This document shows, piece by piece, positions 9,301 to 35,244 of a DNA stretch of 64,000 nt. This DNA comes from a virus (Duplodnaviria > Caudoviricetes). Under the pieces are notes generated by a model. That model worked only from the letters and a program-made list of their open reading frames with translations, was not told where the DNA came from and made no database searches. Both the position numbers and the translations under genes were made by a program. Position 1 is the stretch's first letter. Each line of letters opens with the position of its first letter. The stretch lies in the IMG/VR virus record IMGVR_UViG_3300037501_000255. One strand, 5' to 3'.

Positions 9301-9553
9301 CGGCCCCACCGCCTCGTGTGGCGGAAAAGTTTGATGCCAAACGATCTAGACTGGAGCCCGTCGCGGTCGCGTAGGATTGTAGATTTGCTATGCTGCGCAA
9401 GTCGGCGTATAGGCGCGAAATCTCCTGTGCTGCAGGGTCTACAGCCACATCGCGAAAAACCGTACCTGGCTTTGTGTCTGCATTCGGCTGCAATAGCCTT
9501 ATATTATCCAACATTGAAAGTATAATGCTATCTAAACTTCTGAAATTAGCCAT
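6335..9553 (-). CDS. Baseplate J-like (gp47/T4 gp6-like) wedge protein with large internal insertion, 1072 aa
   Basis: N-terminus DTKPGTVFRD...LDRLASNF...RGGGAAASGVAVF...NLETFSGGANVESDATFRARI and C-terminal VRPVTADVLV...VAGVDRVVI match baseplate J architecture; directly follows the gp25-like gene. Confidence 0.85.
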   Translation of the reverse strand: MANFRSLDSIILSMLDNIRLLQPNADTKPGTVFRDVAVDPAAQEISRLYADLRSIANLQSYATATGSSLDRLASNFSATRGGGAAASGVAVFTATALDSDIAIPANTAVTSRSGVRFRTMIAATMSVSNSGVYAANASRLRLELDTAGITDEYAIEVPVEAVSPGAAGNISKYSLTSASVPGISAVTNLETFSGGANVESDATFRARILSIFAGSNIGTALGYINTLRADTRVVDVLAVEPGDPLMTRDGTQVSVDSSGKKIVVDPGTGGKVDLYIQGQATEEAIESYIYKDLSGKGDPTDAKNDYILGQRGISTALNFQQRRRESIRAGTLPLQPVLEILSVSGGSSGANFIQKYIDESGNEVGNFELVADTGAFGSSPFGFDKLRWISNNIKLEDEVIIKGIFNGQDATTFSDVQSFPNIHQQITLKNEAATLSSTDRATLTLQHVPIIAVDRVYNATTGERYTVSNSNPDGAVGEANTTGRITIAGNTLPVATDNIEVSYLWDNIYDPDIDFDDLSALSNFRTVQDSIDWGFSNRVELEEELLLYSTVDGYYVTVTHPVSRVIDVSTIQEEVSANVGGKITVSTPIVNILSIVDDVNKEVFYTKLSNGSYTGSEITLPTDTTLPLGAAATVKYNVTDRFSPDGYDLGTFTGTQVKLPNVSDLPIGTTMYVSYVADITSILPTTSLLSLPATGNQNAFTVALITSGIQPITNLYSGSTIVRNLRYAPSYLRINLQGTPSRGRLTIIGHTLQKVEDIVTVTQNGLALDLQSSILNSLGLSNIPASGFVARLESVERVTVANDTVSSVDFSFDTLNYELLDNRYSDGTGFVNSLLSRTQISLSETQSNLDNSFTTGQKLRVVYYYCDTNNSESLVAGASGVYVSKYKYAYVSSIAVASGFTNTSGIVSGNITITGMNQPISGTGYLTTYTYTAPKEGERITLKYNYNKLITDSTFAIEKVRPVTADVLVKQASALVVDIGMKIVVASNAVANTSSILQSVEQTLTVFTTATGLNTTLDASDLISAAYQVAGVDRVVITKFNLSGKTGVVKSISADRNQYIVPGEVSIVEDSR

Positions 9554-9561
9554 TTACGTTC

Positions 9562-9993
9562 CTATATCTGTATATCAAAGACTTCACGGATAACGCTTCC
9601 CTTTTTCGTTGTGACATCAATAACAATGTTATATTGCCGTGCATCATAAAGACTTCGCTGTACCTTTACATTCAATATTTGACTTAGCTGCTCATTTGGC
9701 GTTAGGTACTGTCCGTCTTTCAGCTGTAGTGCCTGGAGTTTCATCAAATTCGTCAAACAGAAATTTACAGCATCAGCTACCTCTGTTTCTAGAATATTAA
9801 ATGGCATTGCTTTGCCGATCACTCTGTCCCCCAACGGGCTCCCATACCACGGATTAAGTGCGGAGCTGCCTTGAGAGGTTAGAAGTATCTTTACGATATC
9901 TTGTTTTAGCTTGTCTTCATTGAAGATACGCTGAAGGGCGCCGTCGGAGCCGAAGCTGAAAGAGCCGTTGACTAGTTTAAGATCAAATGACAT
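9562..9993 (-). CDS. Baseplate wedge subunit / sheath initiator, gp25-like, 143 aa
   Basis: KLKQDIVKILLTSQGSSALNPWYGSPL motif, typical size, and position immediately upstream of baseplate J. Confidence 0.85.
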   Translation of the reverse strand: MSFDLKLVNGSFSFGSDGALQRIFNEDKLKQDIVKILLTSQGSSALNPWYGSPLGDRVIGKAMPFNILETEVADAVNFCLTNLMKLQALQLKDGQYLTPNEQLSQILNVKVQRSLYDARQYNIVIDVTTKKGSVIREVFDIQI

Positions 9994-9997
9994 GCAC

Positions 9998-11467
9998 TCA
10001 TTGAGTTTTTGCCTCGGCTGAAGCGAATCCTTCTGCTATATTAAACGCTTCTATAACCTTCTCCTCTAGTGCCTTGAGCGACTCGGCCACCGTTGCGGGA
10101 GTGGTGTTGAAGAGAGCCTCAATAGTGGAGTCGGGCGGGCGGAAAAACTCATCCTCCTTAAGTCGCTTTTGTGCATCTTCGTTGAGCAGCCCCAGCAAAT
10201 ACTTCGTTTCAATGGCAAATAGGCCATAGATTATACATATAACATCAAATATTGATAGTCCGCTAAACTCCCCAGTATAGTACATAAGCTGCTGTTTTAG
10301 CTGCTCAACCCTAGTCAACTTCTCGTCCTTTTCGTGCTGCTTTTCTTGTAATTTTCTATTTAACTCTTCAACTTCATATGTTATTAGGCTGTTTAGCTGT
10401 GCCACTAGCACGTCTGGTACAATATTTGAGGTGCTTACTCCGTGTTCCAATCTACGTATTTCCTCGCGGCGCTTTACCTGCTCGGTTGGCAACATAAAAG
10501 CTATAGCATTCTGGTTGGCGATTTCCGCCTTTATTAAAGCTATTTCTTGATCTAGGGCGTAAATTTTTGTCTCGGCCTTAATTGTGGTACTCTGAGCCGA
10601 GCGCATTTGTGGATTCGATACTGGGGTAGGGACAAATGCAATCTGAGTAGATAGCCCCTGCACCTCTTTGCGCGCCTCTTCGAATTTAGTGGCTAGACTC
10701 TTTAATATTTGCAGTAGCTTTGTAAGTATTGCCAAATCAACGAATGTGAATTGAGCCTCTTTAACACTAACTCCAGATGCTGATATTAAGCTTTGCAGCT
10801 GTGCCTTAAGCTTCTCAACTCCCTCTGTGTTATTTATAGTCTTGACACGCATATAGAATATGTTATCTATTAGCGGCCTTGATAAGCGGGCCTTGCTTCC
10901 CATTGGTATGTAATCTTCGCCATTTATGGTGTGCTGAAACGATGGCGCAAGCCTTCGGGTTAGCGGAAAAACCGGCACGGCAGCATCGACTACTAGTGGA
11001 AATAGCGATGTGCGCTTAGAATTTGATTTTACGCCTGCAGATATATTTTCTGGCTTAAACATAAATTCAGCGAATCTAGCAGGATCTGGCGGCTCCACAA
11101 GCCTGCCATTTCTTTCACGTATCTGTAGAAATACTTCTCGATCCAGCTCCTCACTATTATATAGTGAGTGGAAATAATTTAGAGTTCCATCTTGTGATAT
11201 GTATGTCTTGAATTCCCCGTCTCTGCGATGCTGATGTACAAATGCCGGATCTGTGGCAGCCGGCAACCCGATCATTCTATAGAAGGCATTAAGCTTCGTT
11301 TCGCCTATACCTCCGGGCGAAACCGGAGCTGCTGCGACAAGCTCATTGTATTTTGCAGATACCTGAGAACGATAAATGTCTATAATTGAGTATAGCTGCT
11401 CTGCAAATGTAAGAGCATCAAAGTTAGAGCTTTCATTTTCGACATCGTTCTGTATATGCTCCGCCAT
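9998..11467 (-). CDS. Hypothetical baseplate-region protein, helical/coiled-coil, 489 aa
   Basis: Long ORF abutting both neighbours; coiled-coil-like stretches (EELNRKLQEKQHEKDEKLTRVEQLKQQL); no family recognised. Confidence 0.6.
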   Translation of the reverse strand: MAEHIQNDVENESSNFDALTFAEQLYSIIDIYRSQVSAKYNELVAAAPVSPGGIGETKLNAFYRMIGLPAATDPAFVHQHRRDGEFKTYISQDGTLNYFHSLYNSEELDREVFLQIRERNGRLVEPPDPARFAEFMFKPENISAGVKSNSKRTSLFPLVVDAAVPVFPLTRRLAPSFQHTINGEDYIPMGSKARLSRPLIDNIFYMRVKTINNTEGVEKLKAQLQSLISASGVSVKEAQFTFVDLAILTKLLQILKSLATKFEEARKEVQGLSTQIAFVPTPVSNPQMRSAQSTTIKAETKIYALDQEIALIKAEIANQNAIAFMLPTEQVKRREEIRRLEHGVSTSNIVPDVLVAQLNSLITYEVEELNRKLQEKQHEKDEKLTRVEQLKQQLMYYTGEFSGLSIFDVICIIYGLFAIETKYLLGLLNEDAQKRLKEDEFFRPPDSTIEALFNTTPATVAESLKALEEKVIEAFNIAEGFASAEAKTQ

Positions 11468-13266
11468 TATGGCCTCCTGCGACCGCCAGAAGACTGCACA
11501 TATTGCCTCTCGCGACGGCGACGTGGGTATTGTCCTGCCGGTTCTACAAACTCGACATTTAGAACCTTACTTACAATATTTGTTCCATCAAATATCCCTG
11601 GCGAAATACACTCTTGATTACCAACTAGAAATGACGCTGTAATTTCTGCCGTACCGGAAGATGTTGACGTAAAAGATGCTTTGTATGTCGAGTCTGCTGT
11701 ATCAAACACAACTGGTCCGACTGTGCCCATGGACGCTGTAAACACAACCTGAAAATTTGTATTGGGCAACTGTGCATCTATGAGATTTGCGCCACTACGT
11801 TCGTTAATCCGCAACGACAGCTGTGCGCTGTCGGAGCCGTCGGCAACAACATATACTTTAGATACTTCAAATACACTTGAGGTTTTTGAGGCTCCGATAC
11901 ATACAACATCTTGATAAAATGATGTTAGGTCTGATAGGTATGCTGTTATTGCATCATTGACATCTTGCGTTGCATCATATGTCGGATCAGCTGCTAGCCG
12001 ATCGTGTATGTCATTTAGGGTCTCCTCTAGCGCATCTGGACGAGGGAATCTGCGTCCAACCTTGGTAATTACCGCGTCTAGGGCACGAGCTCCGCCTGAA
12101 CCTCCCGAGTCCTGATTTGCATTATTGCTTGCAGCAAATTGCACTGCCTGCACCTCATCCATGCAGCCTAGGCTGATGAGATTGCTTAGGAGCAATTGTG
12201 TTTCATCTGGGACTATTTCAAAAGAAACAACATCGTCAACTGTTAGACCGCTGGCCTTGAATGTTACCGTTCCTACCGTCACATCTGTAACCGGATACAG
12301 GGTTCCATCTACCAATATGCGTATGGTCGCAGGCTCTCTATTAGCCGCACTGTCTTCCGATGTGGGCTTCAGTTTGGATGAATCTATAATGTATTTTTTT
12401 AAGTCATTGACTTCGGGATGAGATGGTACAGACAATACCGTTGCCTCGGGAATGATGGTAATCGTAAATCCATCCACCGGTTCGAAGCTAATGCCGGCTT
12501 GCGAGGATAGGATTGTACCCGAGCCGGACGGAGGATCTTTGATTATTGGCGGACAGCTATCAGGATTGCAGCAATCGGCCTCTGTGGCGCAGAAGAATTG
12601 TGCGCTGAGGCCCATGAAGAAGTCCAGCATATCAAGGATGAATGTCAGCGGTGCTAGAGCACCGACCTCATTCAAAAATAGCTGTAACAGCTGACAGATG
12701 CGCTGCGCACATCCATCGACGGCTGCGAAGTTGCCACTTGCTACATCTGCGGGTATTTTGTTTCCGCATTCTATAATCTGCTCAATTATTGGGATTAATG
12801 CCGACAGCATTGCCATTATTATGGCAATGACTAGTTTTATGATATCTATTATGAATAGGATGGTTGCCAGTGGAGGAAGTAGTGCTATTACTGGTGGTAT
12901 TATGTTGAGAAATAGCTCTATGATACTTTCTATTACTGGTATTGGGTTAAAGAGCGCGCATATTATATCTAATATGCCGCGAATTAAATCTAGTATGATG
13001 AATATGGGGGCAAATCCCGACATCACGGATCCTATTGGTCCCATAATTGTCGTTAGCAATTCATTTATTGACTTATACGGCTCTCCCGTCGGCTTAATCT
13101 TGCCTCCGCCAGGAAATTGCATCTGCAGCAATTTCTCATTTGTCATTGCCTTCTTATCTGCCGGCTGAAAACCAGTATTAAATGGAGGATAGAAATTTTC
13201 ACCAAATGCTGCCATTACAGCAGCATTGAATGGGTTAATTGGTCCGACTGGAATGCAACCCGGCAT
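11467..13266 (-). CDS. Baseplate-region protein with long hydrophobic helical region, Cys cluster and C-terminal invasin-type Ig (Big_1-like) domain, 599 aa
   Basis: Ile/Leu-rich helices at about aa 70-230; CATEADCCNPDSC; C-terminal VVADGSDSAQLSLRI...FTASMGTVGPV...TYKASFTSTSSGTAEITA resembles Big_1. Confidence 0.6.
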   Translation of the reverse strand: MPGCIPVGPINPFNAAVMAAFGENFYPPFNTGFQPADKKAMTNEKLLQMQFPGGGKIKPTGEPYKSINELLTTIMGPIGSVMSGFAPIFIILDLIRGILDIICALFNPIPVIESIIELFLNIIPPVIALLPPLATILFIIDIIKLVIAIIMAMLSALIPIIEQIIECGNKIPADVASGNFAAVDGCAQRICQLLQLFLNEVGALAPLTFILDMLDFFMGLSAQFFCATEADCCNPDSCPPIIKDPPSGSGTILSSQAGISFEPVDGFTITIIPEATVLSVPSHPEVNDLKKYIIDSSKLKPTSEDSAANREPATIRILVDGTLYPVTDVTVGTVTFKASGLTVDDVVSFEIVPDETQLLLSNLISLGCMDEVQAVQFAASNNANQDSGGSGGARALDAVITKVGRRFPRPDALEETLNDIHDRLAADPTYDATQDVNDAITAYLSDLTSFYQDVVCIGASKTSSVFEVSKVYVVADGSDSAQLSLRINERSGANLIDAQLPNTNFQVVFTASMGTVGPVVFDTADSTYKASFTSTSSGTAEITASFLVGNQECISPGIFDGTNIVSKVLNVEFVEPAGQYPRRRRERQYVQSSGGRRRP

Positions 13267-15206
13267 TACTTAATCTCCATACCAGTAGGCAGCAGAAGTC
13301 TCTGGCCATCTTTGCCATAAAATGCAATGGCTGACCCAGAGAGCAGGGTTTGACCCTCTGCTGTAAGCTTCAGATCGCCACCAGATTTTACCTCAATATC
13401 GGTATCTGGGGCACTTTCCAAATGTATCCCTTCACTATCCAACGTGATCACATGAAATCCTGCAGTTCCGCTATCTGCGCTCTTGACTTTCACGAATATT
13501 TTTACAACCGGGCTATCATTTGGACTATCATTTACCGCAGAATCTCCGCCCACCTGAACATAAACGTTTCCGTCCATCTGCGAAATGACGCTGTGGCTAT
13601 TCCTGTCCATGCCTATTCTTGATATTACAGAGCCGTAAGTGTCTATCACTACAGACTTATTATCTGCGGCGTCTCTTCCGATATTAAGCTCGAGGCTTCC
13701 ATCTAAATTTGCGTGCACACTGCGGCCTCCGGCATTCGCTTCAGAGTCTGTAGTAGAATTTTTCAATTTTGATGTTATAATGTCGCCAAGATGAGCTTCT
13801 GGAACGGTATTTAATATGTCATGATATGCTGTCTTGTATGCAAATCTATTTTTTGATAATATATCTGTCGGGGCATAGGATGGGTCTAGCTCTATGCCAC
13901 CTCCTGCACCGAATCCAAACTGTTGTATATCCACACGATTTTTATCTCTGAATTGACCATTATTTCTCGTGGCTTCAGATGAGGTGTCGTATGAATTTAT
14001 AAATCTGCTTAGTAAAGGTATGTTGCCGGTATTCGACGACGCTGGGATGTTGACTTTGAGCAGGCCTTCGCCATCAATATCTACGGAGAATCTAGAGTGT
14101 GAATACCCGACACCGTCAGTCGCATCCGGGTCGTCAAGCGTATCTAGTCGCGGCGGCACTGCAACCTGCTTAACTTTACGCGAGTTAAGTTCGAAGTGGT
14201 ATTTGATTGACCTACGTAGAAGTGCTAGATTTTCTTCCAACACTTTGCCTGTGTTATCTTGTATTGGAAATAGGATTTTGTTTCTGTTTAGATCTAGTAT
14301 ATTTCCATATATATCTACCGTTGTACCTATAATATTCTCAAATAGAATATTTGGCAGATGCATGCCTAAATTCATAACATCGGTTCTTTGCATATCGCGA
14401 CGTGATGGCTGATTTAGGAAGTCTCGGCTAGAATCAGCGGAGAGCCTTTCAACCTCCTTGCCGTAATCCTCGCTCATATCCTTCAGTGCATATTCGTATA
14501 CCAGTGTACGGTGCTCTGCTAGCGCCGGGTTGCGAAAAGATATTGCCTCAGATGCCGTACTAGACTTTGTCGTTAGCGGTTGGGCCTGCATACTAGGATT
14601 TCTACCTATAGCTGATAATTCGTAATCGTAATCTATAGCAGTTAGCTTGTCGCTGTTCTGTTCTATGGCTCGCGGAGCTGGTCTCAAATCACGGAGTACA
14701 ATGCCGCTAATGTGACGATACGCCTCAGTATTCTCGTATTTATTTCTAAAGTATTCAAGTGCGGTTTTTGTGCGCGCATTATGCTTTACAAAAGTATCCC
14801 CACCAGTTGTGAGTTCCAACCCATATTGGGTGAGTCGAACACGGCTACCTGCCAAACTCTGAAGGACAATATCTCCAGGACTTAGAGTGGGGTACTGCCG
14901 CTCATTGACGGTAATCGAGCTTATATCTGTGGTTCCGCCAAAATCAAGCTGCGAATAAGCTGATAGAGGAACCGTGCCGATCGGAACATGTTGGCTCATA
15001 CCGGCATGCGTCATCATGATGCGCGTTTTCGAGGTTGGCCCCACAAAAATGCCCCATCCATTCGCCGCATATGGGTGCGGAGCATAAGTTGTAAACTTAC
15101 GCGATGTATCCATATCGGTAAATCTATATACGATCTTATTTGTTTTAGGATCGTACGAATCAATAATAGCTGGTCTAGCCTGCAGTTTTGGCAACGGTGA
15201 ATTCAT
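13266..15206 (-). CDS. Baseplate central spike (gp5/gpV-like: N-terminal OB fold, C-terminal beta-helix), 646 aa
   Basis: N-terminal AIIDSYDPKTNKIVYRF...APHPYAANGWGIFVGP is OB-fold-like; C-terminal short beta repeats (ITLDSEGIHLES...IEVKSGGDLKLTAEGQTLLSG); follows the hub gene. Confidence 0.7.
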   Translation of the reverse strand: MNSPLPKLQARPAIIDSYDPKTNKIVYRFTDMDTSRKFTTYAPHPYAANGWGIFVGPTSKTRIMMTHAGMSQHVPIGTVPLSAYSQLDFGGTTDISSITVNERQYPTLSPGDIVLQSLAGSRVRLTQYGLELTTGGDTFVKHNARTKTALEYFRNKYENTEAYRHISGIVLRDLRPAPRAIEQNSDKLTAIDYDYELSAIGRNPSMQAQPLTTKSSTASEAISFRNPALAEHRTLVYEYALKDMSEDYGKEVERLSADSSRDFLNQPSRRDMQRTDVMNLGMHLPNILFENIIGTTVDIYGNILDLNRNKILFPIQDNTGKVLEENLALLRRSIKYHFELNSRKVKQVAVPPRLDTLDDPDATDGVGYSHSRFSVDIDGEGLLKVNIPASSNTGNIPLLSRFINSYDTSSEATRNNGQFRDKNRVDIQQFGFGAGGGIELDPSYAPTDILSKNRFAYKTAYHDILNTVPEAHLGDIITSKLKNSTTDSEANAGGRSVHANLDGSLELNIGRDAADNKSVVIDTYGSVISRIGMDRNSHSVISQMDGNVYVQVGGDSAVNDSPNDSPVVKIFVKVKSADSGTAGFHVITLDSEGIHLESAPDTDIEVKSGGDLKLTAEGQTLLSGSAIAFYGKDGQRLLLPTGMEIK

Positions 15207-18200: not shown

Positions 18201-20182
18201 TTCCACCGATACAGTAGTCCATTTACATGACGCAGTGTTTTGGTTCCGGCCTGCGTATTCTGGGATGTGTCTGAGCTGAGTTCTTCTGCAGTCAACACAT
18301 CTTTGCCTAAGAAGGGATAGTCGTGGAATTTAACTACACCAGCCTCTATTCTCTTTATATTTTCAGGCAATAAGCTCGTACTCTCGACTAGACCTGTGGC
18401 AGGTTCGATCTTGATTTCATTTGGCGTCAGCGGATCTTCTAGCGCTCCCTGCAGTTGAGTCAATCCCGGTTGCGTATTTATGCGGGATATCTCCAAAAAA
18501 TGCATATTGTCTTTCGCTCGTATATTAACAGCGTAAAATCCGTCCTCTGCGCGATAGCTGCTACTTACGCCGGAAATGATACCCTGCCATATCTGCGGCC
18601 CTGTACCGCGAAATACGTGCGGATTTCTCATGAGCTTGTATATCCACAGCGGTATATCTGGAGCTAGCCGTATGCGCTCCTGATCTATGAAATCATCACT
18701 GATGCGAGCCTTTGCATCCTCAAGGCCAAGCACTGAGGTGCTGACATTCTGCGCCAGTTGCGCTAGCGTAGTGTCGTAAAGCGGTGTTTCATCACGCGTA
18801 AAAGAGTTGGCGAAAACATGAATAGCATCCATATGCTGAATTATGTGATGCCCCACGAATTCCTGCCTCATCCGATCCAGCACATCGCTATTTAAGTTAT
18901 TGAGCAATTGAAATTCATCTATAGCACGATCTTGTATAACCTTGTATTCTCTCAATAATTCAAATATTTGCTTAACTCTTATTTGCTCTGTTGCTGTAAA
19001 GCGCTGCTCTTCCGGGATGTTTGACTCTTGCGGACCCTGCCCTGAGGCAAACCCCCGACCCGCACGTAGATCGTTTACGAATCTGCGTGCATCGCTAACA
19101 TCATCAGTGCCGTATACGAGATCATTTTCTGTGAATGGCTGATTTAGCGCTATTAGGGTAGCGGATACGTCGGTGTCTGTGCCAAATGGGAAATTAAAAT
19201 TTATCTCACTAACACCGCGCGAGCGGCGAGAGGCATTTAGTTCTACATCTAGCTGCATAGCCTCATTTGCAATTTGCTTTGCTCTCTCTGTAATATATGA
19301 TGGTATTCTTCCATTTTCCAGATATGCTTCTTTAAGAGCGCGATCTATATCATCTTCTGTTATTACTGATAGTCTATACGGGTCTTGTAACGTGATGTCG
19401 CATTTGCCTTCTCCAGTCGAGAGTGTGGTTGTGGTGGTTATGTTGGACATCATCGTGAATTCCATGACTCCGACACCCGGTCCCGTACCCCTCATATCAC
19501 CAGCAAGGGGATCTACTATCCATGTTGTGAATTTATTTTGCTTGGCTTGCTCTGAGGCCTGCATTACTCTAAATAATTGCTGCAACCACGGCTGTGAAGC
19601 CATCATGTCTCTAATCATTTGACTTGATGCTCCAGCTAGTGATGTCTGTGTAGCTCCTAATAAATCTAGGGCTGAGGCATTTGCCAGGCCGATGGATGCT
19701 ATATCAAATATTGCATTAAATAGATTTCCAAGAGCGCCTGATGCGTAGATGAAATCAGGATCTTCGATAATCTTGTCTACGAAAATTAGTGACTCATAAA
19801 ATGCTATGTCTTCGCATTTTTTTCTGAACAACGTCTTAATGGCTCTTATATATAACTGCTCTTTTTCATCAAAATAATCTGGATCAAAGTTCTCTCTTAA
19901 AGTTGAGAACATCCTTTTTTTGATTACTACTGATGGCTGCACATCTTGCGAGAGAATTCGGCGTTTTGATGGAGCTACTACGTCAGAGATGTGGGAGCCA
20001 GCAAAAGATGTCCCGGGGACGCGCATTGTGCCGTCCTCTATAAATGAGTTTTGAAATACCCTTGCGCCCACAGCTTGCAGTACGCGGGTGAGCGTTGATT
20101 GTATCTGCCCGACAAATTCACCAGACCTATCTCCAATGATGTCTGGATAGCGCGACCTTGCAGTGTTAAATAAAATAGCCAA
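15206..20182 (-). CDS. Baseplate hub protein (gp27/gp44-like) with large insertions, 1658 aa
   Basis: GPQIWQGIISGVSSSY, FELFADSQGNINFRPP and GSITIVGNEHYQVGETVYI...YYITSVNHSID...FTTTLQLAYGR are hub-type signatures; lies between tube initiator and spike. Confidence 0.75.
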   Translation of the reverse strand: MAILFNTARSRYPDIIGDRSGEFVGQIQSTLTRVLQAVGARVFQNSFIEDGTMRVPGTSFAGSHISDVVAPSKRRILSQDVQPSVVIKKRMFSTLRENFDPDYFDEKEQLYIRAIKTLFRKKCEDIAFYESLIFVDKIIEDPDFIYASGALGNLFNAIFDIASIGLANASALDLLGATQTSLAGASSQMIRDMMASQPWLQQLFRVMQASEQAKQNKFTTWIVDPLAGDMRGTGPGVGVMEFTMMSNITTTTTLSTGEGKCDITLQDPYRLSVITEDDIDRALKEAYLENGRIPSYITERAKQIANEAMQLDVELNASRRSRGVSEINFNFPFGTDTDVSATLIALNQPFTENDLVYGTDDVSDARRFVNDLRAGRGFASGQGPQESNIPEEQRFTATEQIRVKQIFELLREYKVIQDRAIDEFQLLNNLNSDVLDRMRQEFVGHHIIQHMDAIHVFANSFTRDETPLYDTTLAQLAQNVSTSVLGLEDAKARISDDFIDQERIRLAPDIPLWIYKLMRNPHVFRGTGPQIWQGIISGVSSSYRAEDGFYAVNIRAKDNMHFLEISRINTQPGLTQLQGALEDPLTPNEIKIEPATGLVESTSLLPENIKRIEAGVVKFHDYPFLGKDVLTAEELSSDTSQNTQAGTKTLRHVNGLLYRWKRGILTVTQNINVNRPLGDTFASVPGIEQDYGLTVLNNVFAKLDAADILSILICGKPYNYNTFIRAALDSGSITLSNEGSSNAYFDHLFDIFEQSNPTNGRFLPAITEVIDRERATQAAAFERQVSRAVGSINALQRQLAGIKGKIANVKLVDGSIAVQEQLKMLQAEQVAAEAALRRLNSTMSNVGDVRIFGDDVVQHLTDDENNQASKRVQYILLKKPEDVKYNKDNNFFVVSDRYSTDLSIQSFVQDLKDNQGFDPFKNTYKHPIEIAQEVANVLHFELFADSQGNINFRPPEYNKIPLSLMLRLIQLGQTDGVSLVPPFIENLIKNRAQTYKDRLTVIELEIRERVAFLGGIDKLNDYADGSALGAGLKYITRAYPSGSSGLVTYAIDDVALREASLEHAAFTEGTQTDLALENLDSEAWPTSLNENEIITEVMSVRNDLRRLTGHPAEEYFADSIEQRAAILSEINKYTNANGNAASERLRLTNEISVRVSKRQTLINATVRLLDQQSGIDSAATFNGPGALIGAFFSSMVSDTAAIFGNDRVSFIPKFIQDMVINDLQNTFGRNSGKRFVIEDDVILSMDFEIKPPDFTRINVYGSENLLGQGEAIVTGNPLAFWAGASDFDLWRQFGYRHAADDKVPYLNNPETQLAPYAVMRLMQQRGQIHTGSITIVGNEHYQVGETVYIAAKEMLYYITSVNHSIDLRSNSFTTTLQLAYGRPLGQYIPQPFDIIGRTLLADAARGGLNQRVNRAPPASAQVKVLETLYFPIKTSEAPAPDIDNGPMQHFIKTNASKIKNAIIKAHSTISSSGGASIKLEIRGFMVADINKLTGRRQDGKPVVTPTEDTIKAYMSAIRSVMTTGIYPEETIPLNDSLSIDATQVNDKSEEAPQRIEEKYFKQGSDPGAIVVIDRKLTDDDIKYRRMPSQRAWMSDSIDPSGQSLGLPVNALDIAIIVDRSVTGDSAGEQTQGQHIAPAQAGELDASLGVPNDDMGKTA

Positions 20183-20191
20183 ATACTACCT

Positions 20192-21160
20192 CTACCTTCG
20201 CAAATCCAACCCCTTAATATTTACACCATCTAGGCTGGCAGCGGCACCGCGCATATTATTGGCATCAAAAATATCCACAGATAAGGACATGTCCGCCCCT
20301 CCACTTCTCTCACCGGCCTGCTGGTTTACTTCCAGTATTGGCAGTGGCTGATCTAGTTCAGTGAAACTGTATGGGTTAGACGGACCCGCCGGTCCTTCTG
20401 GTTGTTTGTGCCATGGCATAAAGTTATGTCGAGATCCTTGACGCGCATATGCTACAAACTCTATGTCGTAATCGAACCACCCCAGCTTCTGCGTTGACTC
20501 AGTCACGTTAAAACTTTTGAAGTATCCACGATACAGAACTCCTTGAAAAAACATATCTATATTGGATGCCAGCGATGCTAGCGTGGGGCGCGGTCGATTA
20601 AGTCCATTAAATAGTTGCGATGTTATTTGTAATACATTTTGTCCAAATAGAAAGCCATTCCCTTCTGCGCTGCCAGAGTTGCCCAGGCCTGTGATGAAGC
20701 TGCCTATGGCTTGATCTAGCTGTACATTTGATAATTGCTCTTCTAGTGCCGCAGCTATACCTTCAAAGGCAAGCTGTTCAGATCTGTATATGGATTGCAG
20801 GATATTGATGCCCTCCATGCCCGCAGAGCCTGTCGTTCCATTTAATATAATTTGATCTAGGTTTTCACCGCCATACTGAACAACGAATCCGCCCTTGGTT
20901 CTCATATTCTGTATGATTTTTGAGCTCATGATTTTAATCTGTTGCGGATTTATATACATCTGTATGTAGCCCAAATGTGGCGTCCTCCAGGTCACCATCT
21001 CTCTGACAACTCTTCCTACGTGAGGACGATCTATGAGATTTAGTACCGAAGCATTAACTTTACCAGATGAGGCGCTGATCGATGCCGCTCGATTCGCAAG
21101 TAGCTCCGGATTTGCCAATGTAGGTTCTGGCGGAAATGGGTCTAATGGTTGAAATGCCAT
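20192..21160 (-). CDS. Tail tube initiator / baseplate-tube linker, 322 aa
   Basis: MYINPQQIKI...RTKGGFVVQYGGENLDQIILNGTTG and YRGYFKSFNVTES...FDYDIEF resemble tube-fold initiators of large myophages; directly downstream of the tape measure gene. Confidence 0.65.
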   Translation of the reverse strand: MAFQPLDPFPPEPTLANPELLANRAASISASSGKVNASVLNLIDRPHVGRVVREMVTWRTPHLGYIQMYINPQQIKIMSSKIIQNMRTKGGFVVQYGGENLDQIILNGTTGSAGMEGINILQSIYRSEQLAFEGIAAALEEQLSNVQLDQAIGSFITGLGNSGSAEGNGFLFGQNVLQITSQLFNGLNRPRPTLASLASNIDMFFQGVLYRGYFKSFNVTESTQKLGWFDYDIEFVAYARQGSRHNFMPWHKQPEGPAGPSNPYSFTELDQPLPILEVNQQAGERSGGADMSLSVDIFDANNMRGAAASLDGVNIKGLDLRR

Positions 21161-21175
21161 ATGTGCTCCGATACT

Positions 21176-23485
21176 TTATGTTGCTACTGACTGCTTTATT
21201 TCTACTCGCAATTCTCTCTTAATTGAAGAAACCACCGCTTTTATACTATCTCCATCTATCTTAAACGATATTGGTATCTCCAACTGTTGAGCCTCAAATT
21301 GCAGCGCCGTGGGCCCCTGCCTGGTGGCTGTGGGCGGCGCTGTTGGCGCGGAGGGCGTCGGCGTTGTTACGGGCGTGTTTGGTGTGGGTACTGCGGGAGT
21401 TTGCAGTGATTCTACCTGCGGTGGAACCGGAGCTTGAGGCACCTGCAATACCGGAGTCTGCACTCCCTGTCCGGCATATCCTGCGGGTGATATGCCCATG
21501 TTGGCATAATCAAGCTGTAGACGGCCTACGTTCAATCCATAAGCGCTCTCCATCTGCCTGACACTTCTAGTTGGCAGCGTATTGTACTGTTCAATCTCTC
21601 TTCCAGTAGCGAATGGTAATTGCTGGCTTTCCCCTACAGTGCGGGTTGAAGCATACAGGAGTTGTGTGTCTCTTGCAACATCTGCTGTTGATGGAAAAAG
21701 CTTTGTGCGCAGCATGCTGCCTTTAGCCGCTCCACCTTCACCAATTATTAATTCTGGGGTAGCTAAAATTTGCTGGGCCGCGGCAAGGTCTGCATCCTCA
21801 GCAGCCATCGCGCCAGGCCGGGTGGTGGATTTGTCTACCACTACTTTGCCAACTGAAGATTTAACCTGATCAAAAATCACTCTTGCCGAATCTCGAATGG
21901 TATTTGCGGCTTGTTGATATGATGAGACCATCTTTCCCAAAGCCTCGGCTTCTTCTGCGCGCATTTTATTGACAAGCTGTTGCTTTACTCCAGTCTCCAT
22001 ATCTATTCTGGCTTGCCCAACTTCCATAAGTTGTTGACGACCTTGCTCTAGCGCTTGCGGGCCCGCAAAGACCTCAGTAGATCGCTCAATTTCCCCGCGT
22101 TGCATGATGCCCAGCATGGTATCTAATTTTCCAGTATCGCTCTGGCCTGTAATTGTTTGAAGCAACTGTCTTTGTAGGAGATATTGCGACTCTTGTCCGG
22201 TATCTAGCGCTTGGCGACGAGTTAGTATCTCGCCCCCTCCCATTTGCTCTAACTGTTCACGAATAGAGGTGAATATTTCGCCAGTTCTCCCTTCAGCAAG
22301 CGCTTGCTCTACTTCTAGACCAGCACCAATTGCTCCCCGGCCCTGACCTACTTGAGATTGCATTCCAAGAAATGCTTTTAGTCCAAAATTCATATCATGC
22401 AAATTGCGCACAGTATCTGTAAATAGCTCTTTGCCAAGCTCCTGCCTGCCTTCCCCTACAGATTTAACGAATGCATTGAAGGTATTTGATAAGCTTTCAA
22501 CTGATGTGCCGTAATATCTAAGCTGTGAGGCTGAACCCATGACTGATTCGGATACGTTCCTCATCGATAGTCCGGTCCCTCTCTGCGCAAGAGATAGAGC
22601 TGCGAACAGTGTGCTTGTATCTGATGCGCTGCGACCTAGTTGACGTATATTCAGCTGTACATACTCACTAATCTTGCCCATTTCAAGGCCTGTAGCTTTT
22701 GATAATCTAATTGCAGCTGTCAGGCCATACATCCGTTCGCCTGTTGCGGTAGTGTCCCCACCCATTTTACCAAACACTTCGCTTACATCTATACCTGCGG
22801 CGGTTAGAGACCCCATAGAGGCACGTGTAGCTTCAACACTCATGCCCAACTGTTGCGCCGAGCGCGCAGAGTTGGTTAAAGCCTCCTCTACTCGGGTAGT
22901 AAATTCTTCGCTACCCAAACCTGCGGTTGCAAATGCGCCTCCAAGATCGACTATACCTGGAGCAATACCCTTCACTTGTGCAGTAATCTGAGATTCTAGT
23001 TTCTCTATCGGCTGAAGCAGCTCATCGACCAGCGGCGCGCCCAACTTAAACACCACCATCTCTGCCAAGTTTACACGATTTGCTGCGAGCAGGCGCTGTA
23101 TTTCGCCATTCATTTTCGTAGCCTCTCCCGAGGCTACGCGATATGCATTTTCAAACTCTTCACCTAAAGCATCTGAATCGATACCTATTTCGCTTAAATC
23201 TATACCAAATGCTGACTGGGCTAATTTTTTAAGCTCATCACCAGCCTTGCCTGCAACGGTTGCTATATTTTTGAAAATAGTATTAGCATCCTCTTCTAAG
23301 TCGCTAAATGCAGATTTCAATTCGCCAACACTATCTTCCATGCCTGGAAATAGATCTACTTTGTCGCCTGCCACATCTCCCAATTTTTTAGCAAGCTCAA
23401 CTATACGAGCCAGTATCTGCTCTACCGCCTGCAGCTTTGCAGGATCTGGTAGGTCTGGGTTTGTTGGATTCGTAGGATCAGCCAT
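21176..23485 (-). CDS. Tape measure protein, 769 aa
   Basis: Ala/Gly/Gln-rich helical sequence directly after the chaperone pair and before the tube initiator (canonical gene order); Pro/Thr-rich segment near the C-terminus. Confidence 0.75.
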   Translation of the reverse strand: MADPTNPTNPDLPDPAKLQAVEQILARIVELAKKLGDVAGDKVDLFPGMEDSVGELKSAFSDLEEDANTIFKNIATVAGKAGDELKKLAQSAFGIDLSEIGIDSDALGEEFENAYRVASGEATKMNGEIQRLLAANRVNLAEMVVFKLGAPLVDELLQPIEKLESQITAQVKGIAPGIVDLGGAFATAGLGSEEFTTRVEEALTNSARSAQQLGMSVEATRASMGSLTAAGIDVSEVFGKMGGDTTATGERMYGLTAAIRLSKATGLEMGKISEYVQLNIRQLGRSASDTSTLFAALSLAQRGTGLSMRNVSESVMGSASQLRYYGTSVESLSNTFNAFVKSVGEGRQELGKELFTDTVRNLHDMNFGLKAFLGMQSQVGQGRGAIGAGLEVEQALAEGRTGEIFTSIREQLEQMGGGEILTRRQALDTGQESQYLLQRQLLQTITGQSDTGKLDTMLGIMQRGEIERSTEVFAGPQALEQGRQQLMEVGQARIDMETGVKQQLVNKMRAEEAEALGKMVSSYQQAANTIRDSARVIFDQVKSSVGKVVVDKSTTRPGAMAAEDADLAAAQQILATPELIIGEGGAAKGSMLRTKLFPSTADVARDTQLLYASTRTVGESQQLPFATGREIEQYNTLPTRSVRQMESAYGLNVGRLQLDYANMGISPAGYAGQGVQTPVLQVPQAPVPPQVESLQTPAVPTPNTPVTTPTPSAPTAPPTATRQGPTALQFEAQQLEIPISFKIDGDSIKAVVSSIKRELRVEIKQSVAT

Positions 23486-23813
23486 CGATCAACTCTTCCT
23501 TGGGTAGTTCCTTACCAAAGTGCCGCGCGAGAACATCAGTAAATACTTCGGGATCACTTTCGGGACGACTCTTCTTGCTTTCGCGTGCTTTCTGAACGCG
23601 CTCGACGCCCTCTGGATTCGAAAATGATGCTAAGTAATCTATGTACTCTATTGTTTTATTAGATGCTTCTTGCATATCCTGCTCTATCATGCAGGCATAC
23701 CATTGTAATTCAAAAATGGGCAGAGAGGCGATCTTGGGATCGCTCACCGGGACTCCCCATGCTTTTGATAGCTCCCATCTGACCCGGTGAGTGGGGTCAG
23801 TGGTCAGCTCTTT
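23478..23813 (-). CDS. Tail assembly chaperone, frameshift-accessed C-terminal segment (lambda gpT-equivalent); fused product about 312 aa
   Basis: The -1 frame is open from the slippery site (KELTTDPTHRVRWELSKAWGVPVSDPKIASLP...) into the track ORF 23478..23747; its stop overlaps the tape measure ATG. Confidence 0.75.
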   Translation of the reverse strand, partial: KELTTDPTHRVRWELSKAWGVPVSDPKIASLPIFELQWYACMIEQDMQEASNKTIEYIDYLASFSNPEGVERVQKARESKKSRPESDPEVFTDVLARHFGKELPKEELIDG

Positions 23814-23819
23814 AAAAAA
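23743..23819 (-). other. Programmed -1 ribosomal frameshift signal: U UUU UUA slippery heptamer plus predicted H-type pseudoknot
   Basis: Heptamer at 23819-23813 is in the reading frame of the chaperone gene. After a 5-nt spacer (AAGAG): stem 1 CUGACC (23807-23802) / GGUCAG (23784-23779) and stem 2 CUCACCG (23791-23785) / CGGUGAG (23749-23743). Confidence 0.8.
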
Positions 23820-24415
23820 CTACGGCTAAACTCCTTCTCAACTTCGCGTTGTACGCTAGCAGAGAATGCCATGAGTGCCGTAACCATAAATGCAGGCCAC
23901 CTCGACAGCTCGGAATACTTCCGCAACATTGGGTCTTTTATTGAATCTTGCCCAGTATAGAATTCCTCAAATGCAATGCCGTTAACAGATATCAGCGATG
24001 CAGCTAAACCCATAACTGAAGCTTGATAAGCCTCGGTGAGGTCTGCTTGTTGTAGCAAATCTAGTATTTTAGCATTATCATTAGATTTTAGAACTTTGAA
24101 TCTAAACGTTAGCCCGCCATACTCAATATCCTTAGTCTGGTCTTGGCTAAGAAACATAAGCTTTTCAAATGCTATTTTCTTTTCTACCTCTTTTTTGAGG
24201 AGCGGGTCTTCCGGTAGAGAGGGTTCCTCTGGGGCGGAGGTTGAGGTCGGCGATTGAGCAGCTGCCTGCTCCACATCTGCCATTTGCTTGTCGAAAAGAG
24301 CGTCATCGTCATCCGGAGGGGCGACGGTATACACTTTGGGGGCCGACTGCGCTTCTGCCTGCTCTGAACCTGGGGCGTGGGTGAAATTTGACATGGACGG
24401 GTGTGTTATCTTCAT
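23804..24415 (-). CDS. Tail assembly chaperone (lambda gpG-equivalent), 203 aa
   Basis: Lies between tube and tape measure genes; acidic Pro-rich N-terminus then a helical domain; ends at the slippery site (...SRSFLKS*). Confidence 0.75.
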   Translation of the reverse strand: MKITHPSMSNFTHAPGSEQAEAQSAPKVYTVAPPDDDDALFDKQMADVEQAAAQSPTSTSAPEEPSLPEDPLLKKEVEKKIAFEKLMFLSQDQTKDIEYGGLTFRFKVLKSNDNAKILDLLQQADLTEAYQASVMGLAASLISVNGIAFEEFYTGQDSIKDPMLRKYSELSRWPAFMVTALMAFSASVQREVEKEFSRSFLKS

Positions 24416-24426
24416 CGCTATACTCC

Positions 24427-24464
24427 AAAAATAAATATGCCCTAGATATATACATCCAGGGCAT
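24427..24464 (-). terminator. Putative intrinsic terminator after the sheath-tube genes
   Basis: mRNA-sense AUGCCCUGGAU-GUAUAU-AUCUAGGGCAU (11-bp stem with one G-U pair) followed by AUUUAUUUUU, 25 nt after the tube stop codon. Confidence 0.6.
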
Positions 24465-24488
24465 ACATTATGAGGCTATGAACCTAGA

Positions 24489-25169
24489 TCAGCCGCCGCC
24501 GAAAATTGGGGCGTCATTGAGCAGCAGACCAAGTGATGCTGCATCAAGCGTACCTCTACGACCTACGTCAGTTGTGGTTTCAATGTTATAAGCCAGATTG
24601 CCAGCTCCAGGACCACCGAGATAACCGCTAAAGAAGTCGTCTCCGGGTAGGGCGGGGGAAGTAGTGCCGTTAGCGAAGTAGGTTACCACATCCTCAGGAA
24701 TAATAGTAGCTTCTTGAGTGATAATGTATTCGCGTACCTGATAGCTGCCAGAAAGTTGTGTAAACCAGCAATTTTTGTACTCATGTATTACCATGCCTGG
24801 CGAGTTAGCGACGGGAGAGAAGTCGGGTGCTTCGCCGGCTTGCGCATACATTGTATCAAAAACCTTGATGGTGAACGGTATACGCTGTGACTTGATATTA
24901 TGGAATGGACGCCCGAATGCCAACGGTAGGCTGAGGCCGTCAAACGTGATACGTGTAACGGTAAGCTCTACTTCTGGTGCGGAATTTGGCACGACTTCCA
25001 GGACGCCATCGAACCCAACTTCGCTGACACGTTGAACAGTACGATTCTGACGGATCGTCATGTTCTGAATAGCGCCGACCTTCTTGTTATCAACCTCTAC
25101 CAGAATCTGGGTAGACAACGAAGTTGAGATGAATGTCTCAAGCCTCGAATTTGTATTTGGGTAAGCCAT
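24489..25169 (-). CDS. Tail tube protein, 226 aa
   Basis: KKVGAIQNMTIRQNRTVQRVSEVG...VELTVTRITFD...HEYKNCWFTQLSGSY matches the myophage tube fold; directly downstream of the sheath with a strong SD (GAGGAGAGGA). Confidence 0.85.
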   Translation of the reverse strand: MAYPNTNSRLETFISTSLSTQILVEVDNKKVGAIQNMTIRQNRTVQRVSEVGFDGVLEVVPNSAPEVELTVTRITFDGLSLPLAFGRPFHNIKSQRIPFTIKVFDTMYAQAGEAPDFSPVANSPGMVIHEYKNCWFTQLSGSYQVREYIITQEATIIPEDVVTYFANGTTSPALPGDDFFSGYLGGPGAGNLAYNIETTTDVGRRGTLDAASLGLLLNDAPIFGGG

Positions 25170-27755: not shown

Positions 27756-27839
27756 GAACAATCTCCTTAAGAACTGCCTAGATTATTATCTATATTCAGA
27801 AGCATATTAATTAGTAGAGAGCACAACTGTCTGTATATA

Positions 27840-35234: not shown

Positions 35235-35244
35235 TTATAACACC

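What the first reader, a model, noticed from the sequence alone, without database searches (positions are those of the whole stretch)
9562..25169. DGY-free block: tube, tape measure, chaperones, tube initiator, hub, spike and gp25 lack the motif entirely
Seen: about 5,000 aa of contiguous genes from gp25 to tube contain roughly two dozen Asp-Gly pairs, none followed by Tyr. In the neck protein, by contrast, 7 of 10 DG pairs are DGY. Established: in contractile tails the tube and tape measure are enclosed by the sheath, hub and spike sit in the baseplate centre, and chaperones are not in the virion. Inference: DGY marks externally exposed parts and is unselected or avoided in internal or injected parts. 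This serves as a built-in negative control for the sequon hypothesis.
Basis: partly seen in the sequence, partly recalled or inferred. Interest (0 to 1): 0.7.

Follow-up and report, generated by a model that had tools for sequence, protein, structure and literature searches.

The report
Inner tail proteins lack DGY tag
In this uncultured giant freshwater phage the three-residue mark Asp-Gly-Tyr studs the outward-facing tail, neck and fibre proteins but stays at background level in the ten adjacent genes for the inner tail (tube, tape measure, hub, spike and partners); related phages show the same split, so the mark belongs to the particle surface and is not a by-product of composition.

Summary
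Observation confirmed. The ten minus-strand genes of 9562-25169 (5,144 aa) hold 24 Asp-Gly-X and no DGY. The other genes of the window hold 64 DGY among 159 (Fisher p 1.6e-5).

The contrast repeats in relatives. Counting each alignment column once across about 35 related contigs and two whole genomes, the inner-tail families have 2 DGY among 117 DG sites. The appendage families have 133 among 364 (p 7.5e-17).

Tyr or beta content does not explain it:
- Low-Tyr appendage genes still show 17/52.
- In a sister clade with a weak tag, the same protein families show 15/169 against 2/62.
- Within the sheath and the gp6-like wedge protein, DGY sits only in inserted domains, never in the core.

The block is unselected, not avoided. 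Replication enzymes of the same phages and of the weak-tag relative all show 4-5%.

One block family breaks the rule. The 599-aa post-spike protein carries DGY in the variable C-terminal part of its relatives (6 of 26 sites).

gp25, the tube initiator and the chaperones have too few Asp-Gly pairs to say anything on their own.

The control separates a surface-linked function from composition. It does not show that DGY is a modification site.

This scan had already noted the DGY tag in this genome and in at least 16 others. I found no paper describing it.

The parts
24489..25169 (-). Tail tube protein, 226 aa; 2 DG, 0 DGY. Its family has 9 DG sites and 0 DGY across 44 sequences.
   Evidence: It lies directly after the sheath gene. 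A profile of 26 orthologs hits the solved tail tube chain 8q01_A at E 0.019. phrog_985 matches at 6.3e-7. No Pfam match. Counts.
23804..24415 (-). Putative tail assembly chaperone, 203 aa; no DG at all, so uninformative.
   Evidence: phrog_2792 tail assembly chaperone at E 1.6e-3. Position between tube and tape measure. Counts.
23478..23747 (-). Small 89-aa ORF before the tape measure, possibly the second chaperone part. Its single DG forms its last two residues.
   Evidence: Orthologs of 113-131 aa sit in the same slot in relatives. The family has 1 DG site and 0 DGY.
21176..23485 (-). Tape measure protein, 769 aa, Tyr 1.6%; 1 DG, 0 DGY. Family: 11 DG sites, 0 DGY.
   Evidence: phrog_4704 tape measure at E 1.6e-4. 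Conserved position. Counts.
20192..21160 (-). Tube initiator, 322 aa; 1 DG, 0 DGY. Family: 3 DG sites, 0 DGY.
   Evidence: 12 of 24 orthologs match PF23980 Phage_tail_tube_init, best E 3.4e-6. Protein-atlas neighbours are tube-initiator and Dit-like clusters at 0.94-0.95.
15206..20182 (-). Giant baseplate hub protein, 1658 aa, with a gp27/gp44-type hub domain at about residues 1231-1393 and a coiled coil near 650-745; 6 DG, 0 DGY. Family: 57 DG sites, 0 DGY in the strong-tag clade.
   Evidence: The model of residues 860-1460 has low confidence (pLDDT 54, with 65-80 in the beta domain). Foldseek finds Mu gp44, the MuSo2 tail protein, the pyocin R2 hub and T4 gp27 from E 7.6e-6. An independent VIA-align search gives Z 8.0-9.2 over 128-145 aligned residues, rmsd 2.8-4.1, to hub chains. 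No Pfam or PDB sequence hit. Counts.
13266..15206 (-). Central spike, 646 aa; 5 DG, 0 DGY. Family: 22 DG sites, 2 DGY.
   Evidence: Protein-atlas neighbours carry Phage_base_V, Gp5_OB and DUF2345 at 0.92-0.94. Position after the hub. No Pfam hit above cut-off. Counts.
11467..13266 (-). Post-spike protein, 599 aa, with a C-terminal Ig-like domain; 5 DG, 0 DGY here. Its family has 26 DG sites and 6 DGY, all aligned after residue 260.
   Evidence: PF09134 Invasin_D3 at E 6.2e-7, just under the cut-off. Orthologs in G001 (3 of 6), G002 (2 of 5), L060, L061 and L064 carry DGY. The ortholog is 2033 aa in G005.
9998..11467 (-). Conserved 489-aa protein of unknown role; 2 DG, 0 DGY. Family: 10 DG sites, 0 DGY.
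   Evidence: Syntenic orthologs in G001, G002, L058, L060, L063 and L064. No reliable family. Counts.
9562..9993 (-). gp25-like sheath initiator, 143 aa; 2 DG, 0 DGY. Family: 2 DG sites.
   Evidence: PF10934 Sheath_initiator at E 3.7e-5, 24.2 bits against a cut-off of 32.9. phrog_120 and phrog_2669 baseplate proteins.
25197..27761 (-). Tail sheath, 854 aa, upstream flank; 3 DGY among 9 DG, at residues 184, 425 and 480. All DGY sites of the family lie in the inserted region, about 70-505.
   Evidence: Model pLDDT 77.7. Z 29-32 to the phi812 and pyocin R2 sheaths, with about 320 residues aligned, rmsd 3.0-3.4. The family's 9 DGY sites map to reference residues 71-503; the 9 core sites have none.
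6335..9553 (-). gp6/J-like baseplate wedge protein, 1072 aa, downstream flank; 2 DGY among 5 DG, both in the central insertion.
   Evidence: phrog_6 at E 1.7e-44 on residues 5-288. The family's DGY sites map to residues 552-724 only.
2..6331 (-). Giant baseplate or wedge protein, running off the window (2195 aa in G000); 15 DGY among 29 DG, including the tandem DGYDGYDG.
   Evidence: Orthologs show 43 DGY among 91 DG.
53785..55848 (-).
   Evidence: Only short PHROG matches to virion structural proteins. Its role follows from position only.

Best explanation
DGY is a mark kept by positive selection on the outward-facing accessory domains of the tail, neck, baseplate periphery and fibres of this giant-phage clade. 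The block 9562-25169 encodes the parts that lie inside the sheath or in the baseplate centre: tube, tape measure with its chaperones, tube initiator, hub, spike and sheath initiator. There the mark brings no benefit, so Tyr follows Asp-Gly only as often as in any other protein of the phage (about 2-5%). Shown here: the contrast, its repetition in relatives, its independence from composition and fold, its recurrence at domain level inside single proteins, and the background level of the block. Inferred: that the dividing variable is solvent exposure on the finished particle (from homology to solved contractile tails), and that some partner reads or modifies the motif. That partner could be an enzyme such as the GT4 glycosyltransferase encoded right after the tail genes, a docking protein or a ligand on the host. 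What the partner is remains unknown.
For: Window: 0 of 24 against 64 of 159, p 1.6e-5.

Every one of about 33 strong-tag loci has 0 DGY in the block part it covers, while its appendage genes mostly show 0.2-0.45, with a few low outliers on short contigs.

Counting each alignment column once: 2 of 117 (8 of 143 with the 599-aa family) against 133 of 364, p 7.5e-17. Per family, at the appendage rate: hub 0 of 57 (p 5.5e-12), tape measure 0 of 11 (0.007), 489-aa protein 0 of 10 (0.011), tube 0 of 9 (0.017), spike 2 of 22 (0.004).

Composition control: appendage genes with Tyr at or below 3.5% still show 17 of 52, against the block's 0 of 24, p 7.8e-4.

Fold control: in the weak-tag sister clade the same families show 15 of 169 (appendage) and 2 of 62 (block). 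Appendage families rise 8.9% to 36.5% between clades (p 2.5e-12), while block families do not change (p 0.73).

Domain level: the sheath family has 9 DGY sites in the insert at 71-503 and none in 9 core sites. The gp6-like wedge family has DGY only at 552-724.

Background: reciprocal-best-hit non-structural proteins show 4 of 79 and 3 of 73 in strong-tag genomes, against 3 of 66 and 2 of 47 in G005.

Chemistry is specific: DGF 4, DGW 0, NGY 1, EGY 0 in the window. At shared DGY sites orthologs rarely have Phe or Asn (DGF 1, NGY 1).

The motif is not one shuffled domain: 32 of 64 DGY contexts have no detectable similarity to any other.

Gene identities.
Against: Exposure was not measured. No coordinates were available, so the solvent accessibility of the DGY tyrosines could not be computed, and the core/insert boundary of the sheath is approximate (sheath insert against core, by sites, p 0.07).

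The 599-aa family inside the block carries DGY in relatives (6 of 26 sites), and the spike family has 2 sites. This fits exposure only if those parts protrude at the tail tip, which is inferred.

The small proteins outside the block with few beta-forming residues are also DGY-free (1 of 15), so within the window alone beta content and DGY go together.

The major capsid protein, which is exposed, has no Asp-Gly at all in G001 and G002, so it gives no test.

Tube, tape measure, chaperone and gp25 assignments rest on weak scores plus position.

No modification or binding partner has been shown.
Confidence: 0.7

Rival explanations
1. Active avoidance: DGY is removed by purifying selection from internal or injected proteins, because a modification or binding event at the motif would harm assembly or ejection.
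For: In G000 the non-target pool (block, two endonuclease homologs and 35 replication or metabolism ORFs) has 0 DGY among 98 DG; P = 0.01-0.03 at a background of 3.4-4.6%. The pooled set of 2 of 195 against 24 of 518 in G005 gives p 0.023.
Against: Block families at 2 of 117 do not differ from a background of 3.2-4.6% (P 0.09-0.27). With the 599-aa family the rate is 5.6%. Conserved non-structural orthologs of the strong-tag genomes G001 and G002 show 5.1% and 4.1%, the same as the weak-tag genome G005 at 4.3-4.5%. There is therefore no proteome-wide depletion.
Confidence: 0.1
2. Module turnover rather than exposure: DGY is a property of exchangeable, fast-evolving accessory domains (Ig-like, lectin-like and fibre modules) that spread among appendage genes. 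The block lacks it because its proteins do not take part in that exchange.
For: DGY lies in inserted or variable parts of the sheath, the gp6-like wedge protein and the 599-aa family. Ten small groups of DGY contexts are homologous to each other, as paralogs or internal repeats.
Against: Half of the contexts (32 of 64) share no detectable similarity with any other. The hub and tape measure evolve fast (25-27% identity between clades, many indels) yet have 0 of 57 and 0 of 11 sites. DGY sites turn over within alignable regions: 37 sites in the giant wedge family, only 17 of them shared by two or more sequences. Tandem DGYDGYDG is not a domain.
Confidence: 0.15
3. Composition or chance: the block simply has less Tyr (2.7% against 4.2%), less beta structure and few Asp-Gly pairs, so zero DGY is unremarkable.
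For: The block has lower Tyr and fewer beta-forming residues (0.27 against 0.32). Low-beta genes outside the block also lack DGY (1 of 15).
Against: Tyr-matched appendage genes show 17 of 52 (p 7.8e-4). The all-beta tube family (0 of 9) and the spike family (2 of 22) lack it. The same folds in the sister clade show almost no contrast. The site-level p is 7.5e-17.
Confidence: 0.03

Closest known systems
Three-residue O-glycosylation signal of Bacteroidota, D-(S/T)-(A/I/L/V/M/T), and the N-X-S/T sequon (from my own knowledge; not checked in a paper here)
   Same: A short linear motif, beginning with Asp in the Bacteroidota case, is enriched only in the class of proteins that meets the modifying machinery and stays at background elsewhere. 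That is the kind of partition seen here between outer and inner virion parts.
   Different: In those systems the partition follows export across a membrane, and the modified residue (Ser, Thr or Asn) and the enzyme are known. Here all the proteins are made in the cytoplasm, the partition follows position in the finished particle, the hydroxyl residue is Tyr, and no modification has been shown.
Virion glycosylation of mycobacteriophages by phage-encoded glycosyltransferases (Freeman et al. 2023, PMC10527164, as summarised in PMC12619734)
   Same: The phage carries glycosyltransferase genes near its structural genes and has a surface coat on virion proteins. Here a GT4 gene sits right after the last DGY-rich tail gene in all four genomes compared.
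   Different: There the glycans sit at the C-termini of the capsid and tail tube subunits (PMC12619734). Here the tube has no DGY, the motif is scattered through accessory domains, and the GT4 gene is also present in the weak-tag genome G005, so it does not track the tag.
Inner core of contractile tails as solved for T4, Mu, phi812 and R-type pyocins (tube, tape measure, tube initiator, gp27/gp44 hub, gp5/VgrG spike, gp25 sheath initiator)
   Same: Gene order and folds match: sheath Z 29-32, hub domain E 7.6e-6 and Z 8.0-9.2, and the tube-initiator family.
   Different: The hub is about four times the usual size (1658 aa). Two further conserved proteins (599 and 489 aa) lie between the spike and gp25. 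Most relatives have two tube paralogs separated by homing-endonuclease genes.

Membership tests
Contractile-tail inner core module | Sheath gene of the contractile-sheath fold directly upstream | tested here: met
   Model pLDDT 77.7. Z 31.7 to the phi812 sheath (rmsd 3.3, 320 aligned) and Z 29.2 to the pyocin R2 sheath 3j9q_A (rmsd 3.0, 320 aligned).
Contractile-tail inner core module | Tube protein | tested here: inconclusive
   The ortholog profile hits the tail tube chain 8q01_A at only E 0.019. phrog_985 'virion structural protein' at 6.3e-7. No Pfam match in 26 members. Position and size fit.
Contractile-tail inner core module | Tube initiator (PF23980) | tested here: met
   12 of 24 orthologs match, best E 3.4e-6. 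The window protein itself does not reach E 0.01. Atlas neighbours score 0.95.
Contractile-tail inner core module | Hub with the gp27/gp44 fold | tested here: met
   Foldseek E 7.6e-6 to 1e-4 to 3d37, Mu gp44 (9ki1_G, 1wru) and 3cdd; pyocin R2 hub 6u5h at 5.5e-4; T4 gp27 at 4e-3 to 9e-3. VIA-align wide search Z 8.0-9.2, 128-145 aligned, rmsd 2.8-4.1, for the hub chains among the top 13 rows (11 of 13). The model is of low confidence overall (pLDDT 54).
Contractile-tail inner core module | gp5/VgrG-type spike | tested here: inconclusive
   Only language-model neighbours at 0.92-0.94 that carry Phage_base_V, Gp5_OB and DUF2345. No Pfam or PHROG hit. Not folded.
Contractile-tail inner core module | gp25-like sheath initiator (PF10934) | tested here: inconclusive
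   E 3.7e-5, but 24.2 bits lies under the curated cut-off of 32.9. phrog_120 at 4.7e-8.
Sequon-directed protein modification | Short motif enriched in one class of proteins and at background in the rest | tested here: met
   36.5% against 1.7-5.6% (block) and 4-5% (cytoplasmic orthologs).
Sequon-directed protein modification | A chemical group attached at the motif | not testable with these tools
   The phage is uncultured and no proteomic or structural data were available.
Sequon-directed protein modification | A dedicated enzyme whose presence tracks the motif | tested here: inconclusive
   A GT4 glycosyltransferase (PF00534, 3.6e-10) follows the tail module in G000, G001 and G002, and also in the weak-tag genome G005. 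Only four genomes were compared.
Mycobacteriophage-type virion glycosylation | Glycans at the C-termini of the capsid and tail tube subunits | tested here: not met
   The tube family has 0 DGY in 9 DG sites, and the capsid protein of G001 and G002 has no Asp-Gly. The motif is internal to accessory domains. This tests the motif's location only, not glycans.

The most novel reading that the evidence does not exclude
DGY is the attachment or recognition site of an undescribed tyrosine-directed virion surface system, such as a sugar coat. Because it is kept only where the finished particle faces outwards, its presence or absence can serve as a sequence-only ruler of virion topology in this large clade of uncultured giant phages. 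For example, it predicts that the variable C-terminal part of the post-spike protein protrudes at the tail tip, while the 1658-aa hub is wholly enclosed or ejected.
Probability: 0.3. Interest if true: 0.8.

Novelty: new variant of a known kind. Interest (0 to 1): 0.6.

Why it matters
The DGY tag is a strong signal, and I found no description of it in the papers searched. The open question was whether it reflects chemistry on the particle surface or merely the make-up of fibre proteins.

The inner-tail block answers that as far as sequence can. The same folds and the same phages differ about twenty-fold in DGY use, according to where a protein, or even a domain, sits in the particle. Cytoplasmic proteins define the background.

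This narrows the possible mechanisms to ones that act at or matter for the outer surface. It also shows that non-targets carry no cost, since there is no avoidance.

It gives a practical rule for assigning unknown virion proteins of uncultured giant phages to inner or outer positions. And it sets up a clean experiment: a DGY-rich domain against a block protein as a matched negative control.

Tried and rejected
- DNA-level motif: rejected. There are 13 codon spellings, all 64 nonamers are in frame, and only one lies on the other strand.
- BLAST of the block against deposited phage genomes: no match.
- Pfam and PDB sequence searches for the 1658-aa protein: nothing but coiled-coil noise.
- PF07068 (Gp23) search for the capsid gene in five relatives: nothing, and the control genomes did not ring either. 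The capsid protein was found by PHROG instead. It has no Asp-Gly, so it gives no test of 'exposed means DGY'.
- A two-component binomial mixture over whole genomes, to estimate the background rate: unstable (p_low 0.000 and 0.013 with 22-24% of ORFs in the 'high' class). I replaced it with reciprocal-best-hit orthologs.
- PHROG annotation of DGY-rich ORFs outside the tail module of G001 and G002: mostly no family.
- Using the GT4 gene as a discriminator between strong-tag and weak-tag genomes: it is present in both.
- Literature: 'DGY motif' with 'phage' gave 0 papers, and 'Asp-Gly-Tyr' gave 18 unrelated papers.
Full report
**What is there.** All long genes of the window lie on the minus strand. 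The stretch 9562-25169 holds ten ORFs of 143, 489, 599, 646, 1658, 322, 769, 89, 203 and 226 aa, 5,144 aa in all. They contain 25 Asp-Gly pairs. One of these ends the 89-aa ORF, so 24 have a following residue, and none of those is Tyr. The other 25 genes hold 159 Asp-Gly-X, of which 64 are DGY (40%); Fisher p = 1.6e-5.

**The motif is a protein-level signal.**
- DGY is the most over-represented tripeptide of the window by a wide margin: 64 seen, 4.0 expected from composition, 11 expected from a first-order model.
- The signal is specific. NGY is 1, EGY 0, DGF 4 and DGW 0, all at or below expectation.
- It is spelt in 13 different ways.
- All 64 GAYGGNTAY nonamers of the minus strand are in the coding frame. 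There is one on the plus strand and none in the block in any frame.
- Asp-Gly not followed by Tyr is at the composition expectation in the block (25 against 22) and outside it (95 against 83). DGY is therefore a surplus added to one class of proteins, not a deficit in the other.

**What the block encodes.**
- Upstream gene 25197-27761: a sheath. Model pLDDT 77.7; Z 29-32 to the phi812 and pyocin R2 sheaths with about 320 aligned residues.
- 226-aa protein directly after it: called tube from position, a PHROG match and a weak profile hit to the solved tail tube 8q01_A (E 0.019).
- 203-aa and 89-aa ORFs and the 769-aa protein: fit chaperone and tape measure by position and weak PHROG matches.
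- 322-aa protein: a tube initiator. 12 of 24 orthologs match PF23980, best E 3.4e-6; atlas neighbours score 0.95.
- 1658-aa protein: has no sequence-level family. A model of residues 860-1460 is poor overall (pLDDT 54) but has a better beta domain. Two independent structure searches match that domain to baseplate and tail-tip hubs. Foldseek gives E 7.6e-6 to 1e-4 for Mu gp44, MuSo2 and 3d37, 5.5e-4 for the pyocin R2 hub and 4e-3 to 9e-3 for T4 gp27. VIA-align gives Z 8.0-9.2 over model residues 372-534, which are protein residues 1231-1393.
- 646-aa protein: has gp5/VgrG-like neighbours in the protein atlas at 0.92-0.94.
- 143-aa protein: gp25-like, PF10934 at E 3.7e-5, under the cut-off.
One is a 599-aa protein with an Invasin_D3-like Ig domain (E 6.2e-7). 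The other is a 489-aa protein of unknown role.

**Repetition in relatives.** The sheath brought in 57 related viral contigs, and the gp6-like wedge protein six more. I also read three whole relatives: G001 at 442 kb, G002 at 340 kb and G005 at 395 kb. Synteny from neck to fibres is kept in all of them.

The relatives fall into two groups:
- Short sheath (about 850 aa, as in the window): appendage genes mostly show 20-45% DGY.
- Long sheath (about 1070-1180 aa, including G005): appendage genes show only 6-19%.

In every one of about 33 short-sheath loci, the covered part of the block has no DGY.

Orthologs share inherited sites, so I aligned each family and counted each alignment column once. 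Per family, the probability given is for so few DGY at the appendage rate.

| Family | DG sites | DGY sites | P at the appendage rate |
|---|---|---|---|
| Hub | 57 | 0 | 5.5e-12 |
| Spike | 22 | 2 | 0.004 |
| Tape measure | 11 | 0 | 0.007 |
| 489-aa protein | 10 | 0 | 0.011 |
| Tube | 9 | 0 | 0.017 |
| Tube initiator | 3 | 0 | 0.26 |
| Chaperones | 3 | 0 | 0.26 |
| gp25 | 2 | 0 | 0.4 |
| 599-aa protein | 26 | 6 | 0.11 |
| Block, all families | 143 | 8 | |
| Block without the 599-aa family | 117 | 2 | |
| Appendage families | 364 | 133 | |

Against the appendage families, the block without the 599-aa family gives Fisher p = 7.5e-17. With that family it gives 2.7e-14. gp25, the tube initiator and the chaperones have too few sites to say anything on their own.

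**The exception.** The 599-aa family carries DGY in relatives: G001 3 of 6, G002 2 of 5, and 2-3 each in L060, L061 and L064. All these sites align after residue 260, and the nine DG sites of the conserved N-terminal part have none. Only the N-terminal 200-300 residues are conserved between relatives, and the ortholog is 2033 aa in G005. I read this as a protein anchored at the spike with an exchangeable, protruding C-terminal part. That reading is inference. In the window and its nearest relative that part is an Ig-like module without DGY.

**Is it composition or fold?** The block has less Tyr (2.7% against 4.2%) and fewer beta-forming residues. Three results show this does not account for the contrast.
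- Appendage genes with Tyr at or below 3.5% still show 17 of 52, against the block's 0 of 24 (p 7.8e-4).
- The same protein families can be compared between the two clades. Appendage families rise from 15 of 169 sites (long-sheath clade) to 133 of 364 (p 2.5e-12). Block families stay at 2 of 62 and 8 of 143 (p 0.73). Fold and family are thus held constant while only the outer parts change.
- The split recurs inside single proteins. In the sheath family all nine DGY sites map to reference residues 71-503, the part that has no counterpart in minimal sheaths. The nine DG sites of the N- and C-terminal core (64 occurrences) have none. In the gp6-like wedge family DGY occurs only at 552-724, between the conserved N- and C-terminal parts.

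One caveat remains. Within the window, the small proteins outside the block with few beta-forming residues are also DGY-free (1 of 15).

**Unselected or avoided?** In G000, the tail module is followed by a GT4 glycosyltransferase and then by genes for a TubZ-like tubulin, UvsW and DnaB helicases, ribonucleotide reductase and PhoH. Together they have 0 DGY among 66 DG.

That zero hints at depletion, so I tested it with orthologs. Reciprocal-best-hit non-structural proteins show 4 of 79 (G001) and 3 of 73 (G002), against 3 of 66 and 2 of 47 for their partners in the weak-tag genome G005. The background is thus 4-5% everywhere. The block families (1.7%, or 5.6% with the 599-aa family) do not differ from it (P 0.09-0.27). 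The block is unselected. Avoidance is not supported, though small samples cannot exclude a mild effect.

**What kind of motif.**
- Half of the 64 DGY contexts in the window share no detectable similarity with any other. The rest form ten small groups of paralogs or internal repeats. The tag is therefore not one shuffled domain.
- Sites turn over quickly. The giant wedge family has 37 DGY sites, of which only 17 are shared by two or more sequences.
- At shared sites the commonest variants in orthologs are DSY (16) and DAY (8), while DGF and NGY occur once each.
- Selection therefore acts on the Asp carboxylate and the Tyr hydroxyl with a small residue between them. That points to recognition or chemistry rather than turn geometry.

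**Candidate enzyme.** The GT4 gene right after the last DGY-rich tail gene is syntenic in G000, G001 and G002. It is also present in G005, so in this small sample it does not track the strength of the tag.

**Known work.** I found no paper on a DGY motif in phages. The nearest described systems are sequon-directed glycosylation and the virion glycosylation of mycobacteriophages. In the latter, glycans sit at the C-termini of the capsid and tube subunits (PMC12619734, citing Freeman et al. 2023), a location that does not fit here.

This scan had already flagged the DGY tag in this genome and in at least 16 others. This report adds:
- the site-level negative control;
- the sister-clade comparison;
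- the background rate from cytoplasmic orthologs;
- the 599-aa exception;
- the result that inner proteins are neutral, not depleted.

**Verdict.** The reading that DGY belongs to outward-facing parts is the best-supported explanation (about 0.7). What reads the motif is unknown, and the block cannot decide between a modification site and another surface-linked role.

Noticed in passing
L012:12531-15679 (G001 345518-348669); also L022:12569-16021: Most short-sheath relatives have two tube paralogs, with homing-endonuclease genes (homologs of window 57205-58419) wedged between sheath, tube 1 and tube 2. The window has one tube gene and no endonuclease at that place.
   Followed up: partly
L130:4382-5548 (G000 66382-67548, about 3.5-4.7 kb before the window start): A GT4 glycosyltransferase (PF00534, 3.6e-10) lies two genes after the last DGY-rich tail gene. 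It is syntenic in G001 (fused, 754 aa), in G002 (756 aa) and in the weak-tag genome G005.
   Followed up: partly
window 15206-20182: The hub protein is about four times the usual size. It has a coiled coil near residues 650-745 and a gp27/gp44-type domain only at about 1231-1393. The rest has no recognisable family.
   Followed up: partly
L071:10770-16871 (G005 30770-36871): The ortholog of the 599-aa post-spike protein is 2033 aa in G005. Only the N-terminal part is conserved across the family.
   Followed up: no
L108:12770-13795 (G001) and G002 203147-204172: The major capsid protein (phrog_2522, 3.2e-75) is 97% identical between G001 (44% GC) and G002 (56% GC), while the median protein identity of the two genomes is 66%. 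It contains no Asp-Gly at all and is flanked by a LAGLIDADG endonuclease gene in G001.
   Followed up: partly
L130:8795-10258 (G000 70795-72258): A TubZ/PhuZ-like tubulin gene (PF00091 at 6.3e-13, PF22453 at 8.4e-12) lies in the replication gene cluster next to the tail module.
   Followed up: no
L094:13715-15847 (G001 93715-95847): A 710-aa ORF combines DNA methyltransferase matches with a stretch resembling the anaerobic ribonucleotide reductase large subunit, and carries 2 DGY among 4 DG. It may hold an inserted element.
   Followed up: no
window 23743-23819: The junction of the 203-aa and 89-aa ORFs before the tape measure is the usual place for a chaperone frameshift. I did not test it.
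   Followed up: no
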